From a virus (Duplodnaviria; Heunggongvirae; Uroviricota; Caudoviricetes): a stretch of DNA of 41,455 nt. The notes under the pieces were generated by a model that ran no database searches, had not been told where the DNA came from, and was given only the letters and a program-made list of their open reading frames with translations. Positions 32,245-40,087 of this stretch are shown one piece after another. The stretch lies in IMG/VR virus record IMGVR_UViG_2585427970_000004, one strand, 5' to 3'. The translations under genes and the position numbers were made by a program. Positions within the stretch are counted from its first letter, which is position 1. The number at the start of each line of letters is the position of its first letter.

Positions 32245-32472
32245 TTAGGCGGCAGAATTACTCGCGTTAAACAATGGTGCGAGGTCGGGACGAATATCTG
32301 CTGGTTTAATCTTTCCACCAGTGGCTGAGACAATTTTCATTACATAGCGGGCATCAATTCCGCCACCGTGTAGCCAACGCCAAACAGTGGGTTGGGCTAC
32401 ACCGCATAGATCTGCCAGTCGTTTTTGACTACCTGTAATACTAATTGCGAGTTGAATGGTTTGATTTGTCAT
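32245..32472 (-). CDS. Cro-like HTH regulator (YdaS/Cro family)
   Basis: Start refined to ATG 32472 (AGGA RBS); HTH segment SQKRLADLCGVAQPTVWRW; divergent from cI. Confidence 0.6.
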   Translation of the reverse strand: MTNQTIQLAISITGSQKRLADLCGVAQPTVWRWLHGGGIDARYVMKIVSATGGKIKPADIRPDLAPLFNASNSAA

Positions 32473-32503
32473 TATCAATTCCTATTGGTATTGCAATGAA
32501 TAG

Positions 32504-32532
32504 ATAATAGCAATGCGTATTAACTCAATCAA
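32504..32532 (-). promoter_or_regulatory. PR-like sigma70 promoter for the cro-like operon
   Basis: Minus strand -35 TTGATT (32527..32532), 17-bp spacer, -10 TATTAT (32504..32509); operator-like AATAGCAAT motif in the spacer. Confidence 0.55.
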
Positions 32533-32546
32533 TAGCAAAACGTGTT

Positions 32547-32575
32547 TTGACCATCAATACGCAAGCGTATAAATT
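32547..32575 (+). promoter_or_regulatory. PRM-like promoter for cI; transcript predicted leaderless
   Basis: -35 TTGACC (32547..32552), 17-bp spacer, -10 TAAATT (32570..32575), ending about 7 nt before the cI ATG at 32583, which has no SD. Confidence 0.45.
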
Positions 32576-32582
32576 AAAACTT

Positions 32583-33275
32583 ATGAAAAAAGAAACTCTT
32601 GCTGATCGCTTAAACCTAGCGATGGAACAATCTGGAATGTCTCAAGGCGCTCTTGCAAAGGCGTCTGGCGTAGCTCAACCCACAATCTGGAGACTGACAA
32701 GCGGCAACGCGCGTGGCTCAACAAAAATTGTTGAAATAGCTAATGCATTGGGTGTTCGAACAGAGTGGCTCTCATCAGGCATAGGCCCGATGAGAAATGA
32801 CGGTCAACAATCAGGAAAGCCTGCTGTCAACCATTCCAAATACTTCAAGATTGACGTTCTTGATATAGAAGTGAGTGCCGGGCCGGGAGTCATCAACCGT
32901 GAGTTTGTAGAAGTTCTACGCTCGGTTGAGTACTCGTTTGACGATGCTCGTCACATGTTCGATGGTAGGAAGGCAGAAAATATCCGCATCATTAACGTGC
33001 GTGGTGACAGCATGTCAGGAACGATCGAACCAGGTGATCTGCTGTTCGTTGATATCACGGTTAAATCTTTCGACGGTGATGGTATCTATGCGTTTCTGTA
33101 CGACGACACAGCCCATGTAAAGCGCCTGCAAATGATGAAGGATAAGCTGCTGGTTATCTCTGATAACAAGAGCTACTCACCGTGGGACCCGATCGAGAAA
33201 GACGAGATGAACCGGGTGTTTATCTTCGGGAAAGTTATTGGGAGCATGCCGCAGACGTACAGGAAGCATGGGTAA
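32583..33275 (+). CDS. cI: CI-like repressor (HTH_XRE plus S24 LexA-like peptidase domain)
   Basis: Start refined to ATG 32583 (MKKETLADRLNLAMEQSGMSQGALAKASGVAQPTIWRL…); C-terminal GDSMSGTIEPGDLLFVD…HVKRL autocleavage-type motifs (Ser…Lys); track start is TTG. Confidence 0.85.
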   Translation: MKKETLADRLNLAMEQSGMSQGALAKASGVAQPTIWRLTSGNARGSTKIVEIANALGVRTEWLSSGIGPMRNDGQQSGKPAVNHSKYFKIDVLDIEVSAGPGVINREFVEVLRSVEYSFDDARHMFDGRKAENIRIINVRGDSMSGTIEPGDLLFVDITVKSFDGDGIYAFLYDDTAHVKRLQMMKDKLLVISDNKSYSPWDPIEKDEMNRVFIFGKVIGSMPQTYRKHG

Positions 33276-33320
33276 AAATGGAATTTATGAAACTTTAAAT
33301 TAATCAAATATTGAGTTTAT

Positions 33321-33740
33321 ATGATGCAACATAATATTCATAGTGATTATTTCAAGTGGTGGTGTGGAACGGTAATCATTGGAGCAATCCCTATCTTTAT
33401 TAGATTTATTGCTTATTTCATCACTAATAAAAATATAGAGATGATCAATATAACTGAGTTGATATGTTTTGGCTTTGCCATACAAATATCCAGCATCTAT
33501 TACGGAATGGGCCAACCTAGTAAGCAAACTGAAAACAATATTATTTTAAATACTACTATATCGATTGTTTTCATTGTGATTTTTTCTATAATTTACATTA
33601 TTGTCATGCTGGCTGATAACATCCTTAACATGAATACGACTCGCATATTAGTCGCTATTACTTGTGGTATATCCTTATACATTGGACAAAATTCGGTCAG
33701 GTGTGCTATTATCAATAACAAATTAGCAGCGCAGGAGTAA
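33321..33740 (+). CDS. Small integral membrane protein (4 predicted TM helices), first gene of the cassette in the rexAB-equivalent slot
   Basis: 139 aa; four hydrophobic segments; very AT-rich; immediately downstream of cI. Confidence 0.55.
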   Translation: MMQHNIHSDYFKWWCGTVIIGAIPIFIRFIAYFITNKNIEMINITELICFGFAIQISSIYYGMGQPSKQTENNIILNTTISIVFIVIFSIIYIIVMLADNILNMNTTRILVAITCGISLYIGQNSVRCAIINNKLAAQE

Positions 33741-33743
33741 ATT

Positions 33744-33920
33744 ATGGAGTTCTTAATTACTATTTTATCCATAATAGCTGTTGTGATACCTGCTGTATTG
33801 GCATGGTTTTCAAGAAAAAACCTCAAAAATGCACAGGAAACTTTAATTCACATAGAAAGGATCAGAAAATCAAACAGCGATGACTTTGAAAGAAAGAAAG
33901 AACAACTTAAATATCACTAA
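33744..33920 (+). CDS. Small single-TM protein (58 aa), below the ORF-track threshold
   Basis: AGGAG RBS 6 nt upstream of ATG 33744; MEFLITILSIIAVVIPAVLAWFSRKNLKNAQETLIHIERIRKSNSDDFERKKEQLKYH. Confidence 0.4.
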   Translation: MEFLITILSIIAVVIPAVLAWFSRKNLKNAQETLIHIERIRKSNSDDFERKKEQLKYH

Positions 33921-34830
33921 TGGAATTGGTATGCAGTTAAAAAATATCATTTATATTGATTATGAGAAGGTCTACTCTTTAAGCTCTCAATTATTTGAGG
34001 GCGTAATTCAATCCGCGATGGAGCATAAAGAGTCTACTCTTTCAAATATAGATGCAGTCGAAATTAAGACAAAAAGTAGTTCAAGTAAAACGAGTGACAC
34101 AAAAAAATTATCAACAGTGTTAAACCCTCATGATTACCATTATCTGAAATTTGAAAACGAACTTAGCAATAGAGGAATTCTATCTAACATAACTTCCCCG
34201 ATCGACTCGAACAAAATTAAGGCTAATTGCTTTGTTAAAATCACCTGCCCTATTCAATTTAATGACTATAGTAAATTAAAAAATACCGCGAAGGATTTTT
34301 GTAAAATTCACTATGCTATTAATTTCGTTCATCGAAATGGTGAATTAGAAAACCTAGAATCGATGCTGAAATCGATAAAACCCAAATCCAATGAATTTAA
34401 TATTATCAAGGCAAGACAAGCACAAATCAAAAGTGAGCTTGATAATTTAACTTCTCCAAATAAGAAAAAGTTTCTTGAGCATCTGTCTTCTGTTTTAGAT
34501 TACGCATATGGTGACGAAATAGAAATATCACAAAAAATGCAAGATATTAAATTCACCTCATTCTTAATCAGAGATTTTCTTAAAATCAGCCCAGAAATGT
34601 TTGTAAAGTTATATTCTCGTCGAACGACCTCTGCATTCACTGTCGTAGGGATGATAACGCGTACATCAACGTCTGAAGGCGATCAGGAATCAGAGGCTCG
34701 TGAACTAAGCGGCATTCGCAGTGCGGTCTGGAATATGAATGACAGCCTTTTTGATCTGGAGTCAACATTTTGTGCCCCTGACTCTGATGAATATTTCATT
34801 GAGCCTATTGCTGTTTACAATGAGCTATAA
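33880..34830 (+). CDS. Hypothetical soluble protein (~300-316 aa), third gene of the rex-slot cassette
   Basis: ORF from ATG 33880 overlaps the 58-aa ORF by 41 nt; alternative start ATG 33931 lies 10 nt after that ORF's stop; no motif I can assign; AT-rich; followed by a terminator. Confidence 0.55.
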   Translation: MTLKERKNNLNITNGIGMQLKNIIYIDYEKVYSLSSQLFEGVIQSAMEHKESTLSNIDAVEIKTKSSSSKTSDTKKLSTVLNPHDYHYLKFENELSNRGILSNITSPIDSNKIKANCFVKITCPIQFNDYSKLKNTAKDFCKIHYAINFVHRNGELENLESMLKSIKPKSNEFNIIKARQAQIKSELDNLTSPNKKKFLEHLSSVLDYAYGDEIEISQKMQDIKFTSFLIRDFLKISPEMFVKLYSRRTTSAFTVVGMITRTSTSEGDQESEARELSGIRSAVWNMNDSLFDLESTFCAPDSDEYFIEPIAVYNEL

Positions 34831-34835
34831 AAACA

Positions 34836-34863
34836 ACCCGGCCACTGCGCCGGGTTTTCTTTT
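34836..34863 (+). terminator. Rho-independent terminator after the rex-slot cassette
   Basis: ACCCGGC-CACTGC-GCCGGGT followed by TTTTCTTTT, 6 nt after the stop at 34830. Confidence 0.65.
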
Positions 34864-35004
34864 GCCCTCCCCTCATCACACAAACCGTTCGAAAAACCAC
34901 CACAACCTCGCTTCAGTTACCGCTATGCGATGCAAGTCACAAAATTAATTCTTTTTGCTATCAAACAGTTAATATCAAAACACATCAATCAATAGCAATA
35001 AGTA

Positions 35005-35033
35005 TTGATATCACCAATAGCAATAGCTATTAT
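35005..35033 (+). promoter_or_regulatory. PL-like sigma70 promoter with operator-like repeats (OL)
   Basis: -35 TTGATA (35005..35010), 17-bp spacer, -10 TATTAT (35028..35033); upstream TCAATCAATAGCAA (34985..34998) identical to the OR copy at 32525..32538. Confidence 0.55.
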
Positions 35034-38635: not shown

Positions 38636-38957
38636 GGCCTGTCAGTTTCTTAAGATATCCAGACCAACCGCCACCAACTGGATACGAACAGGCCGCCTAC
38701 AGGCAACACGTAAAGATCCAACCAAGCCAAAATCTCCTTACCTCACAACACGGCAAGCCTGCATTGCGGCGCTTCAGTCTCCGCTGCATACTGTCCAGGT
38801 GAGCGCGGGTGATGGCATAACAGAGGAAAGAAAATGTCACTCTTCCGCAGAAGTGAAATATGGTACGCCAGTTTCACATTGCCGAACGGTAAAAGATTTA
38901 AACAGTCTCTTGGAACAAAGGACAAAAGGCAGGCGACAGAGCTCCATGACAAGCTAA
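38607..38957 (+). CDS. Excisionase-like HTH protein
   Basis: ATG 38607 with GAGGT RBS; [34 protein letters not shown]; immediately upstream of and overlapping int. Confidence 0.5.
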
Positions 38958-39997
38958 AGGCTGAAGCATGGCGGGTCAGCAAACTTGGTGAAATACCTGA
39001 TATAACGTTCGAGGAAGCGTGTGTCAGGTGGCTTGAAGAGAAAGCACATAAAAAATCACTGGACGATGACAAAAGCCGGATCGGATTCTGGCTTCAACAT
39101 TTCGCAGGAATGCAACTAAGAGACATTACTGAATCAAAAATTTATTCAGCAATGCAGAAAATGACGAACCGGCGTCATGAGGAAAACTGGAGACTCAGGG
39201 CAGAAGCATGCAGAAAAAAAGGGAAACCTGTTCCAGAATACACGCCAAAACCAGCGTCCGTTGCAACGAAGGCTACGCATCTTTCATTTATAAAGGCCCT
39301 ACTAAGAGCCGCAGAGCGTGAATGGAAAATGCTGGATAAGGCACCAATTATTAAAGTGCCTCAACCAAAGAATAAACGGATCCGCTGGCTGGAGCCCCAT
39401 GAAGCACAAAGGCTGATTGATGAATGTCCGGAGCCATTAAAGTCTGTTGTTGAATTTGCACTGGCAACAGGCTTAAGACGCTCGAACATCATCAACCTTG
39501 AATGGCAACAAATAGACATGCAGCGCCGGGTGGCATGGATAAACCCGGAAGAGAGTAAATCAAACCGCGCAATTGGCGTTGCGCTGAATGATACTGCATG
39601 TCGCGTTTTGAAAAAACAAATCGGGAATCATCACCGTTGGGTATTTGTGTACAAGGAAAGCTGTACCAAACCAGACGGAACGAAAGCGCCAACAGTAAGG
39701 AAGATGCGGTATGACGCAAACACAGCCTGGAAAGCGGCGCTGAGACGGGCTGGTATTGATGATTTCAGATTTCACGACTTGAGACACACCTGGGCAAGTT
39801 GGCTGGTTCAAGCCGGAGTCCCGTTGTCAGTGTTACAGGAAATGGGAGGCTGGGAGTCTATCGAAATGGTTCGTCGATATGCTCACCTTGCACCTAATCA
39901 CCTTACCGAACACGCACGGCAAATAGACTCGATCCTGAACCCATCGGTCCCAAATTCGTCCCAGTCAAAAAATAAGGAAGGTACTAATGATGTGTAA
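38834..39997 (+). CDS. int: Tyrosine integrase (tRNA-Thr site-specific, IntF-like)
   Basis: 387 aa; C-terminal catalytic motifs (…[42 protein letters not shown]…); ends 15 nt before the tRNA 3' end. Confidence 0.9.
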
Positions 39998-40011
39998 CTT
40001 ATTGATTTAAA

Positions 40012-40087
40012 TGGTGCCGATAATAGGAGTCGAACCTACGACCTTCGCATTACGAATGCGCTGCTCTACCAACTGAGCTATATCGGC
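40012..40087 (-). tRNA. thrW: tRNA-Thr (anticodon CGU), thrW-like; prophage integration target
   Basis: rc = GCCGATATAGCTCAGTTGGTAGAGCAGCGCATTCGTAATGCGAAGGTCGTAGGTTCGACTCCTATTATCGGCACCA; cloverleaf with anticodon loop TTCGTAA, TPsiC-loop TTCGACT, 3' CCA. Confidence 0.9.

What the first reader, a model, noticed from the sequence alone, without database searches (positions are those of the whole stretch)
33744..33931. Hidden 58-aa single-TM ORF and ambiguous start of the ~300-aa gene
The ORF 33744..33920 has the best Shine-Dalgarno sequence in the cassette and overlaps by 41 nt the track-predicted start (33880) of the large ORF in another frame. Either the large protein starts at ATG 33931 (10 nt after the small ORF stop, suggesting translational coupling) or the two overlap. 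A small TM peptide between a membrane protein and a soluble effector could be a regulator or antitoxin-like component.
Basis: seen in the sequence. Interest (0 to 1): 0.5.

Follow-up and report, generated by a model that had tools for sequence, protein, structure and literature searches.

The report
Conserved micro-gene in prophage exclusion-type cassette
The 58-codon ORF is a real, conserved gene for a tiny single-pass membrane protein, and the DUF6414 protein after it starts at 33931, not 33880; together with a four-helix membrane protein they form a three-gene cassette that prophages carry directly behind their repressor gene, probably as an anti-phage exclusion module.

Summary
ORF 33744..33920 has the strongest Shine-Dalgarno sequence in the cassette. 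It overlaps the ORF opened by ATG 33880 by 41 nt and ends 10 nt before ATG 33931.

Comparative data settle the start at 33931. All relatives are about 300 aa and begin at the conserved MxLKNIIYLD motif. Many have in-frame stops 1-12 codons upstream. ATG 33880 has no SD.

The small ORF is not chance. An N-terminal-TM ORF of 41-63 aa abuts or overlaps the DUF6414 start in 49 of 53 viral loci, against 1.8% of random anchors. A 4-TM ORF1 homologue precedes it.

Two metagenomic lineages and a rare E. coli variant (loss of one GAAA unit at 33888..33899) fuse the small protein in frame to DUF6414. That suggests it anchors or partners DUF6414 at the membrane rather than acting as an antitoxin.

The AT-rich cassette lies between oR and oL in lambda's rexAB slot, and also behind 186-type repressors in Vibrio and other phages. 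DUF6414 is the Pfam family of DolA (Dodola defence), but there is no ClpB-like DolB here and no PADLOC hit. One distant relative pairs with a TIR effector instead.

Most likely this is an uncharacterised Rex-like exclusion module. The gene structure itself is already annotated in RefSeq.

The parts
32506..32538 (+). oR-side operator-like repeats (AATAGCAA at 32506 and 32531, 25 bp apart), between the divergent cro-like gene and the repressor gene
   Evidence: Four of the five AATAGCAA matches in the 41-kb window lie in the two regulatory regions flanking the repressor plus cassette.
32583..33275 (+). Lambda-type prophage repressor (HTH_3 + Peptidase_S24), 230 aa from ATG 32583. The mechanical ORF list opens it at TTG 32547.
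   Evidence: Pfam Peptidase_S24 1.5e-18 and HTH_3 1.5e-6. Called as 230 aa in other assemblies. No terminator-like site between it and ORF1.
33321..33740 (+). ORF1: small multi-pass (about 4 TM) membrane protein, 139 aa (138 aa if it starts at ATG 33324). First gene of the AT-rich cassette.
   Evidence: Compared with the 96%-identical copy, 14 of 19 substitutions fall at third codon positions. Homologues precede the small ORF in all loci examined, with P24 and R28 invariant and W13, T17, G51, S57 and S118 nearly so. BLASTP to the Vibrio phage ORF gives 8e-8.
33683..33712 (+). Promoter-like element TGGACA-18-TATTAT with TG extension, inside the 3' end of ORF1 and 31 nt upstream of the small-ORF ATG (candidate internal promoter; inferred)
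   Evidence: It recurs at the same place in cassettes that are only 55-65% identical. Synonymous sites inside the hexamers are conserved while spacer third positions vary.
33733..33737 (+). Shine-Dalgarno AGGAG of the small ORF, overlapping the last codons of ORF1 (ORF1 stop at 33738-33740)
   Evidence: -6.9 kcal/mol.
33744..33920 (+). Small ORF: 58-aa single-pass membrane protein (N-terminal TM, basic/acidic cytoplasmic tail). Proposed membrane anchor or partner of DUF6414.
   Evidence: Fusions.
33880..33930 (+). In-frame upstream extension of the DUF6414 frame (ATG 33880; frame open from 33856). Not the native start; it acts as the linker in the rare fused E. coli variant.
   Evidence: No SD. 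The extension is absent or closed by stops in relatives. The 316-aa form exists only as an alternative annotation. Fusion P0218.
33888..33899 (+). (GAAA)3 tetranucleotide repeat in the overlap. Loss of one unit fuses the small ORF in frame to DUF6414 (360 aa).
   Evidence: An in-silico deletion reproduces P0218 at 359 of 360 residues.
33931..34830 (+). DUF6414-family protein, 299 aa, true start ATG 33931. Soluble, with a partial OB-like beta-barrel.
34835..34856 (.). GC-rich hairpin with T-runs on both strands: bidirectional intrinsic terminator closing the cassette
   Evidence: The same element follows the cassette in L019.
34990..35033 (+). oL-side operator-like repeats (CAATAGCAAT at 34990 and 35015, 25 bp apart), overlapped by a pL-like promoter (TTGATA-17-TATTAT, 35005..35033)

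Best explanation
**Gene structure (shown).** The AT-rich cassette 33321..34830 holds three tightly packed genes:
- ORF1, a roughly 4-TM protein of 139 aa
- a 58-aa single-pass membrane protein, 33744..33920
- a 299-aa DUF6414 protein that starts at ATG 33931

The ATG at 33880 is not the start. The three genes are spaced for translational coupling: 3 nt between ORF1 and the small ORF, and 10 nt between the small ORF and DUF6414.

**Role of the small protein (inferred from gene fusions).** It is the membrane anchor or partner of DUF6414. Its TM helix sits in the inner membrane. Its charged tail faces the cytoplasm and holds the highly conserved N-terminus of DUF6414 at the membrane, next to the 4-TM protein.

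**System (inferred from position and family).** The trio sits inside the immunity region, between oR and oL, directly downstream of the repressor gene. It is therefore probably expressed in the lysogen. This is the slot that rexA-rexB occupy in lambda. It most likely acts as a prophage-encoded exclusion or abortive-infection module. In this model the cytoplasmic DUF6414 protein (DolA family, with an OB-like barrel) senses an infection cue and the membrane proteins execute by membrane permeabilisation.

**My confidence by layer:** gene structure about 0.95; anchor/partner role about 0.7; anti-phage function about 0.55; sensor-versus-effector assignment about 0.4. The overall figure of 0.6 is for the statement as a whole.
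For: **Start at 33931**
- Pfam DUF6414 profile position 1 aligns 2 residues after that ATG.
- The 39 homologues are 290-311 aa with 98-100% coverage.
- There are 325 representatives at E<=1e-3; almost all full-length ones among the 150 listed align from query residue 1-3.
- The N-terminal motif Y8, D10, K13, S16, S18, Q20-L21-F22, G24 is invariant in the alignment of the closer homologues (A2; also A1).
- In-frame stops lie 1-12 codons upstream in many loci.
- SD energies are -4.1 at 33931 and +0.2 at 33880.
- PGAP and most gene callers use this start.

**The small ORF is real**
- It meets the test in 49 of 53 loci, against 1.8% of random anchors.
- Relatives show the same architecture, 41-63 aa with a TM at residue 1 and a basic tail, down to 24% DUF6414 identity.
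- Orthologous pairs show a third-codon-position excess, for example 10/10/31, 12/4/17 and 12/8/22.
- Substitutions against the 96% copy are conservative: F3Y, I35M, I40V.

**Coupling**
- Gaps or overlaps between the small ORF and DUF6414 range from +12 to -26 nt, often ATGA.
- ORF1 overlaps or abuts the small ORF, from -35 to +8 nt.

**Anchor role**
- Natural 1TM::DUF6414 fusions exist: P0107 (11 contigs from JGI and ENA samples) and P0132.
- Each is still preceded by an ORF1 homologue.
- E. coli fusion P0218 arises by loss of one GAAA unit.

**Lysogen expression and Rex slot**
- The cassette is 31% GC against about 50% in the flanks.
- There is no terminator after the repressor gene, and one directly after DUF6414.
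- Operator repeats lie on both sides.
- The lambda layout was read for comparison.
- In every locus checked, the next large ORF upstream on the same strand is a repressor. These are of two unrelated types: HTH_3 + S24, and Phage_CI_repr + Phage_CI_C. In three loci (L056, L058, L062) one further ORF lies between the repressor and the cassette.

**Link to defence**
- The experimentally verified Dodola DolA sequences (supplement of bioRxiv 10.1101/2022.05.11.491447) match Pfam DUF6414 over its full length at 3.7e-29 and 1.2e-21.
- A distant relative, P0159, lies directly downstream of a TIR effector (PADLOC 1.2e-45; Pfam CAP12-PCTIR_TIR 6.7e-32).
- Another three-gene copy lies next to an AAA_21 ATPase.

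**Fold**
- AF2 model: pLDDT 87.2, pTM 0.81.
Against: - There are no expression or phenotype data.
- No PADLOC model matches any of the three proteins, or any of 184 family members, apart from a weak PycTM hit to the small ORF at E 0.0067.
- A profile built from this clade does not detect DolA directly. The link to Dodola rests on the broad Pfam model only.
- The small proteins of different clades are not alignable by BLAST. Their conservation is architectural and positional only.
- TM helices were called by simple hydropathy, not with a dedicated predictor.
- The OB-like match covers only 70-95 of 299 residues. Foldseek finds nothing significant in the PDB or BFVD.
- The fusions could be tolerated accidents. 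P0218 is seen on only 2 contigs.
- The TIR association rests on one lineage (the 2 contigs shown of the 3 that carry P0159).
- The cassette is rare: 1 of 5,426 complete E. coli genomes.
Confidence: 0.6

Rival explanations
1. The large protein starts at ATG 33880 (316 aa) and overlaps the end of the small ORF by 41 nt. Alternatively, both starts are used and give two isoforms.
For: The frame is open from 33856 and contains an ATG. Some public annotations use the 316-aa form: P0212 on 31 contigs, and P0210.
Against: There is no SD at 33880 (+0.2 kcal/mol). The 17-residue extension occurs only in the 95-100% identical E. coli clade. Relatives at 24-65% identity have stops or no ATG there. The Pfam model and all homologues begin at the 33931 Met.
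Confidence: 0.04
2. The small ORF is a chance ORF in AT-rich DNA or an untranslated spacer. DUF6414 would be translated independently.
For: It is short. It has no Pfam, NCBIfam or PHROG match above thresholds. It shows no BLAST similarity between clades.
Against: It meets the test in 49 of 53 loci, against 1.8% of random anchors. Length, N-terminal TM and basic tail are conserved across 23 distinct sequences. Orthologous pairs show a third-position substitution excess. It has the strongest SD in the cassette. It is fused in frame to DUF6414 in other lineages.
Confidence: 0.03
3. Kiwa/Zorya-like polarity. The two membrane proteins are the sensor, detecting phage DNA entry or envelope perturbation. 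DUF6414 is the effector, binding phage nucleic acid through its OB-like barrel to block replication or transcription without killing the cell.
For: There is a 4-TM partner, as in KwaA. DUF6414 has an OB-like barrel. It is tethered at the membrane where phage DNA enters (fusions). In Dodola the family pairs with an ATPase, not an obvious killer.
Against: A relative pairs with a TIR effector, which makes DUF6414 look like the common sensor or adaptor. No nuclease or other catalytic motif was recognised in DUF6414. No PADLOC Kiwa model matched any of the three proteins, and the only NCBIfam KwaA match (small ORF, E 0.054) is far below cut-off. The OB match is partial.
Confidence: 0.2
4. The small TM peptide is an antitoxin-like or regulatory antagonist that restrains a toxic partner (ORF1 or DUF6414).e. 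a three-part toxin-antitoxin or addiction module of the prophage.
For: It is a small protein encoded upstream of, and coupled to, a larger one, as in many type II TA operons. A possible internal promoter (33683..33712) could set a small-ORF to ORF1 ratio, as P_LIT does for rexB.
Against: Covalent fusion of the small protein to DUF6414 in three independent cases is hard to reconcile with a titratable antagonist. There is no DNA-binding or protease-labile domain. No TA family matched.
Confidence: 0.1
5. The cassette is a lysogenic-conversion or phage-physiology module unrelated to defence, such as a membrane transport or stress function, or control of the prophage's own lysis or induction.
For: Function is unknown. 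There is no hit in PADLOC. Moron slots also carry non-defence cargo.
Against: The family is shared with the verified defence protein DolA. There are TIR and AAA_21 neighbours. It is placed repeatedly behind repressors of unrelated phages. AT-rich, patchy distribution is typical of defence morons.
Confidence: 0.15

Closest known systems
Lambda RexA/RexB exclusion system
   Same: It sits in the same genomic slot: inside the immunity region, downstream of and co-oriented with the repressor gene, and upstream of oL/pL. The parts list is similar: a roughly 140-aa 4-TM protein (RexB is 144 aa) plus a roughly 280-300-aa soluble protein (RexA is 279 aa). A candidate internal promoter ahead of the downstream genes recalls P_LIT (my recollection of the lambda literature; the element itself is).
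   Different: There is no detectable homology: hhalign probability is 0.1% for ORF1 versus RexB and 0.2% for DUF6414 versus RexA. No Pfam RexA or RexB hit was found. The gene order is reversed (membrane genes first). An extra 58-aa single-pass protein is present.
Dodola (DolA/DolB) anti-phage system (Millman et al. 2022)
   Same: The third gene belongs to the same Pfam family as DolA. DUF6414 matches over its full length for both (window 1.2e-18; DolA 3.7e-29 and 1.2e-21). The N-terminal beta-strand motif is similar (IIYFDE versus IIYIDYE).
   Different: There is no ClpB-like DolB. The partners are two small membrane proteins. No family member matched any PADLOC Dodola (DolA) model. A profile built from this clade does not find DolA. 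DolA is shorter (256-260 aa). This cassette is carried by prophages of Proteobacteria rather than by Firmicutes chromosomes.
Rst_2TM_1TM_TIR (Rousset et al. 2022, P2-like prophage hotspot system)
   Same: It is a prophage-borne three-gene layout with a multi-pass TM protein, a single-pass TM protein and one soluble protein. The architecture is recalled from memory. The existence of the system and its TM content are cited. A DUF6414 relative does pair with a TIR protein.
   Different: The soluble protein here is DUF6414, not TIR. ORF1 has about 4 TM helices, not 2. Homology of the TM proteins could not be tested (no reference sequences), and PADLOC gave no hit.
Kiwa (KwaA/KwaB)
   Same: A small 4-TM membrane protein is paired with a soluble protein of unknown enzymology. 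The proposed logic is membrane-associated sensing.
   Different: No PADLOC Kiwa model matched any of the three proteins. The only NCBIfam hint is the small ORF versus KwaA at E 0.054 against a cut-off of 100 bits. Kiwa has no single-pass third component.
Pycsar/CBASS effector swapping (PycTM versus PycTIR)
   Same: A conserved non-effector component is found with either TM or TIR partners (versus 97-100). This is the hallmark used to assign effector roles in those systems.
   Different: There is no cyclase or nucleotide-signalling gene. The only hit is the small ORF versus PycTM at E 0.0067, which is weak and driven by TM composition.

Membership tests
Pfam DUF6414 (PF19952) | Full-length match to the family HMM above the gathering score (25 bits) | tested here: met
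   68.3 bits, E 1.2e-18, profile positions 1-283 of 283. All 39 homologues carry PF19952.
Dodola defence system | DolA-type protein (DUF6414) | tested here: inconclusive
   It shares the Pfam family with the verified DolA. However, no PADLOC Dodola (DolA) model matched any of 184 members scanned, and the clade HMM misses DolA.
Dodola defence system | Adjacent ClpB-like ATPase DolB | tested here: not met
   The cassette holds only ORF1, the small ORF and DUF6414, bounded by the repressor gene and a terminator. No AAA/ClpB gene is adjacent to the cassette in the E. coli loci whose called genes carry Pfam labels, and no ORF large enough to be one lies between the repressor and the cassette in the loci inspected.
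Lambda RexAB | Sequence or profile homology to RexA and RexB | tested here: not met
Lambda RexAB | Location downstream of cI inside the immunity region, co-oriented with cI, terminator before oL/pL | tested here: met
   The same placement behind repressors holds in all other loci checked.
Lambda RexAB | Infection-triggered membrane depolarisation by the 4-TM protein upon activation by the soluble partner | not testable with these tools
   This needs phage challenge and membrane-potential assays.
Rst_2TM_1TM_TIR | TIR-domain third protein | tested here: not met
   No TIR domain occurs in any cassette protein. TIR is found only next to the distant relative P0159.
Kiwa | KwaA and KwaB (DUF4868) family membership | tested here: not met
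   No PADLOC Kiwa model matched any of the three proteins. NCBIfam KwaA scored 13.3 bits against a 100-bit cut-off, and only for the small ORF.
Translationally coupled operon (general) | Stop of the upstream cistron within a few nt of, or overlapping, the downstream start, conserved in relatives | tested here: met
   3-nt and 10-nt gaps in the window. In relatives the small-ORF stop lies from 12 nt before to 26 nt past the DUF6414 start, including ATGA overlaps. Actual coupling of translation is not testable here.
Type II toxin-antitoxin module | Small labile antitoxin with DNA-binding or neutralising domain plus a toxin of a known family | tested here: not met
   No TA family was hit in Pfam, NCBIfam or PADLOC. 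The small protein is a membrane anchor type and occurs fused to its neighbour.

The most novel reading that the evidence does not exclude
The 4TM + 1TM + DUF6414 trio is a previously undescribed anti-phage system. It would be a membrane-tethered DolA-family sensor with an OB-like barrel that gates a small membrane effector. It is carried as a repressor-linked moron by both lambdoid and 186/P2-like prophages, and it belongs to a wider DUF6414 sensor family that swaps effectors (TM pair, TIR, ClpB-like ATPase). This would give Dodola's orphan DolA protein a general role and provide a second, unrelated solution to the classic RexAB design. A more speculative extra: the (GAAA)3 tract plus the open linker frame lets E. 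coli lineages toggle between split and fused anchor-sensor forms.
Probability: 0.4. Interest if true: 0.6.

Novelty: new variant of a known kind. Interest (0 to 1): 0.42.

Why it matters
For annotation, this fixes the start of a DUF6414 gene that public records give in two versions, 299 aa and 316 aa. It also shows that the 58-codon ORF, and the ORF1 that PGAP skipped in one genome, are real genes.

For biology, it turns an anonymous AT-rich insert into a defined three-gene module with a testable architecture: anchor, sensor and membrane partner.

The module occupies the rexAB slot of a lambdoid prophage and the equivalent post-repressor slot of 186-like phages. It ties the uncharacterised DolA family of the Dodola defence system to membrane and TIR partners. 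That suggests what DUF6414 proteins do in general, namely sensing or adapting rather than killing.

If a defence phenotype is confirmed, it adds a compact system of about 1.5 kb to the catalogue of prophage-encoded immunity. It would also offer a second model beside RexAB, whose mechanism is still debated after 60 years.

Tried and rejected
**1. Nucleotide and plasmid searches.** Nucleotide searches of the cassette against phage genomes found nothing useful: megablast gave none, and blastn gave only a 42-nt terminator match. tblastn against plasmids found none.

**2. Failed remote calls.** Two of three homologous-protein runs, and the only genome-contig scan, were lost to machine failures. As a result the small ORF and ORF1 could not be searched on their own in the large protein database. 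Their conservation was assessed by synteny instead.

**3. Structure prediction.** The single-sequence AF2 model of DUF6414 was useless (pLDDT 34.7). An alignment of representatives worked.

**4. Fold searches.** The afdb50 library was unavailable. Foldseek against the PDB and BFVD gave no significant match.

**5. RexA/RexB homology.** Rejected by hhalign.

**6. Direct link to DolA.** hhalign and a clade HMM both failed. Only the Pfam model links the two.

**7. Programmed ribosomal frameshift joining the small ORF to DUF6414.** I considered this because the DUF6414 frame is open across the overlap. It is rejected as a conserved mechanism: relatives have stops in that frame and no canonical slippery heptamer is present. 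The fused E. coli form is explained by a 4-nt genomic deletion.

**8. Weak hits judged to be compositional noise.** For the small ORF: 7tm_7, PycTM, LysB, KwaA and ZipA.

**9. Terminator-like hairpin inside ORF1 (33637..33654).** It has only 5-6 bp with 3 GC pairs, and the count of such sites is close to that of the shuffles (4 found against a mean of 2.4, sd 1.4).

Full report
**Setting.** The window is a lambdoid prophage. Around the finding lie:
- a cro-like gene on the minus strand (32245..32478)
- a lambda-type repressor (HTH_3 + Peptidase_S24; 230 aa from ATG 32583)
- a cassette of about 1.5 kb
- kil, gam, bet and exo

. The cassette, 33280..34830, is 30-33% GC, against about 50% in the flanks. 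No terminator-like site separates the repressor gene from the cassette. A strong bidirectional hairpin terminator follows it at 34835..34856.

Operator-like repeats (AATAGCAA, pairs 25 bp apart) occur at 32506/32531 and at 34991/35016. These are four of the five matches in the whole window. The second pair is overlapped by a pL-like promoter. The cassette therefore lies inside the immunity region between oR and oL. That is the slot rexA-rexB occupy in lambda.

**Checking the observation.** Every coordinate in the finding is correct.
- The ORF is ATG 33744 to TAA 33920, 58 aa.
- AGGAG lies 6 nt upstream, overlapping the end of ORF1 (stop at 33738-33740).
- The overlap with the ORF opened by ATG 33880 is 41 nt.
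- ATG 33931 lies 10 nt after the stop.

Duplex energies with the 16S 3' end are -6.9 (33744), -4.1 (33931), -2.2 (ORF1) and +0.2 kcal/mol (33880).

**Where the large protein starts.**
- The Pfam DUF6414 model (E 1.2e-18, full length) begins two residues after the Met of 33931.
- With the 299-aa form as query, all 39 homologues in the 5.8-billion-protein set are 290-311 aa and cover 98-100% of the query.
- In the exhaustive representative search, 325 clusters match at E<=1e-3, and almost all full-length ones among the 150 listed align from query residue 1-3.
- The N-terminus is the best-conserved stretch of the family: Y8, D10, K13, S16, S18, Q20, L21, F22 and G24 are invariant in the alignment of the closer homologues.
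- In 54 related viral loci, the frame upstream of this Met is closed by a stop 1-12 codons away in many lineages. The 17-residue extension exists only in the 95-100% identical E. coli clade.
- PGAP and most other gene callers use the 299-aa form.

The start is 33931.

**Is the small ORF a gene?** A Vibrio 186-like phage (PQ189350.1) carries the same arrangement behind its CI repressor and before its integrase:
- a 147-aa multi-TM ORF (BLASTP 8e-8 to ORF1)
- a 60-aa ORF with an N-terminal TM helix and a basic tail
- a DUF6414 homologue (33% identity, 2e-37)

ATGA-type overlaps join all three genes.

I tested the viral loci found with a DUF6414 alignment. An ORF of 38-90 aa with an N-terminal TM helix ends within -16..+30 nt of the DUF6414 start in 49 of 53 loci, giving 23 distinct sequences. 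The same test is met at 1.8% of 10,074 random anchors. The four exceptions are:
- a 51-aa version with a 29-nt gap (L055)
- a 139-aa single-TM version (L039 and L066)
- a decayed copy (L053)

Orthologous pairs show third-position excess, for example 10/10/31, 12/4/17 and 12/8/22. Against the 96% E. coli copy the three amino-acid changes are conservative. The small proteins of different clades are not alignable by BLAST. What is conserved is length, topology, charge pattern and position.

ORF1 homologues (112-166 aa, 3-4 hydropathy peaks, P24 and R28 invariant) precede the small ORF everywhere, with -35 to +8 nt spacing. ORF1 itself shows 14 of 19 substitutions at third positions, yet PGAP left it unannotated in NADC1036.

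**What the small protein does.** Two DUF6414 representatives carry the small protein as an N-terminal extension:
- P0132, 365 aa
- P0107, 335 aa, with an STRRNS motif like the DTRRK(F/Y)S motif of the free peptides

P0107 is on 11 contigs from independent JGI and ENA samples. Both fusions are still preceded by an ORF1 homologue.

In E. coli itself a 360-aa form (P0218, two GenBank accessions) joins the small ORF to DUF6414 through the 33880 extension. Deleting one unit of the (GAAA)3 repeat at 33888..33899 in silico reproduces it at 359 of 360 residues.

Three independent fusions argue for two points. First, the C-terminal tail of the small protein and the N-terminus of DUF6414 sit together on the cytoplasmic side. 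Second, the small protein serves as a membrane anchor or partner, not as an antitoxin-like antagonist.

**What the system is.** DUF6414 is the family of DolA, one of the two proteins of the Dodola defence system (review). I took the experimentally tested DolA sequences from the supplement of Millman et al.. Both match Pfam DUF6414 over its full length, at 3.7e-29 and 1.2e-21.

This is nevertheless not Dodola:
- There is no ClpB-like DolB.
- No PADLOC model hits any of 184 family members.
- A profile of this clade does not detect DolA directly.

Context is informative:
- In every locus checked, the next large ORF upstream on the same strand is a prophage repressor. These are of two unrelated types, HTH_3/S24 and Phage_CI_repr/Phage_CI_C. 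In three loci one further ORF lies between the repressor and the cassette.
- A 24%-identical copy of the trio lies next to an AAA_21 ATPase.
- The distant relative P0159 lies directly downstream of a TIR effector instead of TM proteins (PADLOC 1.2e-45; Pfam 6.7e-32).

Swapping of TM and TIR partners around a constant protein is the pattern that marks the constant protein as sensor or adaptor in systems such as Pycsar and CBASS.

**Best explanation and its limits.** Shown: three real, tightly packed genes; the start at 33931; conservation of the trio; fusions; the post-repressor location; and membership in the DolA Pfam family.

Inferred, in decreasing confidence:
1. The small protein anchors or partners DUF6414 at the membrane.
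2. The cassette is expressed in the lysogen with the repressor.
3. It is an exclusion or abortive-infection module that works like RexAB.
4. DUF6414 is the sensor and the membrane proteins are the effector.

A Kiwa-like reverse polarity (membrane sensor, OB-like effector) remains a serious rival. A non-defence role cannot be excluded, because no phenotype data exist and the cassette is rare (1 of 5,426 complete E. coli genomes).

**Novelty and score.** The gene structure is already in RefSeq as hypothetical proteins, so the literal finding is ordinary. The module itself is not in PADLOC 2.0.0 (2023). The only paper in the searchable library that mentions DUF6414 is a review that lists it under Dodola. 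I rate it a new variant of a known kind: a DUF6414/DolA-family system with membrane partners, in a Rex-like slot. Interest is moderate.

Noticed in passing
window 33683..33712 (+); also L019 2753..2782, L021 2752..2781: A promoter-like element, TGGACA-18-TATTAT with a TG extension, lies inside the 3' end of ORF1, 31 nt upstream of the small-ORF ATG. It recurs at the same place in cassettes only 55-65% identical. Synonymous sites inside the hexamers are conserved while spacer third positions vary (L015 has TGGGCA/TATAAT). It is a possible internal promoter for the small ORF plus DUF6414, reminiscent of lambda P_LIT inside rexA. It would explain why the small ORF carries the strongest SD.
   Followed up: partly
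window 33888..33899: A (GAAA)3 repeat lies in the overlap between the small ORF and the DUF6414 frame. Loss of one unit gives an in-frame 360-aa small-ORF::DUF6414 fusion, which exists in public E. coli records (P0218; EFC2156621.1, HHV0732037.1). It could be a slipped-strand switch or just a rare mutation.
   Followed up: partly
window 33321..33740; L001 4001..4466: ORF1 (139-aa multi-TM protein) is left unannotated by PGAP in E. coli NADC1036, although it is conserved and under purifying selection. In that genome the first ATG is ATA, so the start there is the second ATG (window 33324).
   Followed up: yes
window 32506..32538 and 34990..35033: Operator-like AATAGCAA repeats occur in pairs 25 bp apart on both sides of the repressor plus cassette. 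The right-hand pair is overlapped by a pL-like promoter (TTGATA-17-TATTAT).
   Followed up: partly
window 32547..32583: The mechanical ORF for the repressor opens at TTG 32547 (242 aa). Other assemblies call ATG 32583 (230 aa). The same cassette also occurs behind a different repressor allele (229 aa, paired with a 76-aa cro-like gene), so the cassette moves between immunity types.
   Followed up: partly
L076 3..698 and L077 2..706: A DUF6414 relative (P0159, from wastewater metagenomes) sits 30 nt downstream of a TIR-domain protein (CAP12/Pycsar-type TIR; also PADLOC candidate PDC-S35). An unknown 229-aa ORF overlaps its 3' end.
   Followed up: partly
L039 2570..2989 and L066: In one lineage the small protein is replaced by a 139-aa protein with the same N-terminal TM helix and a long, probably coiled-coil, tail.
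   Followed up: no
L053 2995..3899; L063 3004..3901: These are decayed copies of the cassette. DUF6414 is split by frameshifts, and in L053 the small ORF is truncated.
   Followed up: no
L080 686..1942: A 24%-identical copy of the three-gene module lies just downstream of an AAA_21/AAA_15 ATPase gene, a class common in defence islands.
   Followed up: no
L005 7768..8177: In one E. coli prophage carrying the cassette, a DndB-family gene follows the exo/DUF1317 region. This suggests further defence-type cargo in the early-left operon.
   Followed up: no
window 38834..40087: A 387-aa ORF (38834..39997, +) ends 15 nt before a tRNA-Thr(CGT) gene (40012..40087, -). I take the ORF to be the integrase and the tRNA gene to be the likely attachment site, but I did not run the ORF against any family library.
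   Followed up: no
L068 61..1074: A RelA_SpoT-domain gene lies on the far side of the repressor in a 186-like element that carries the cassette (P0040 context).
   Followed up: no
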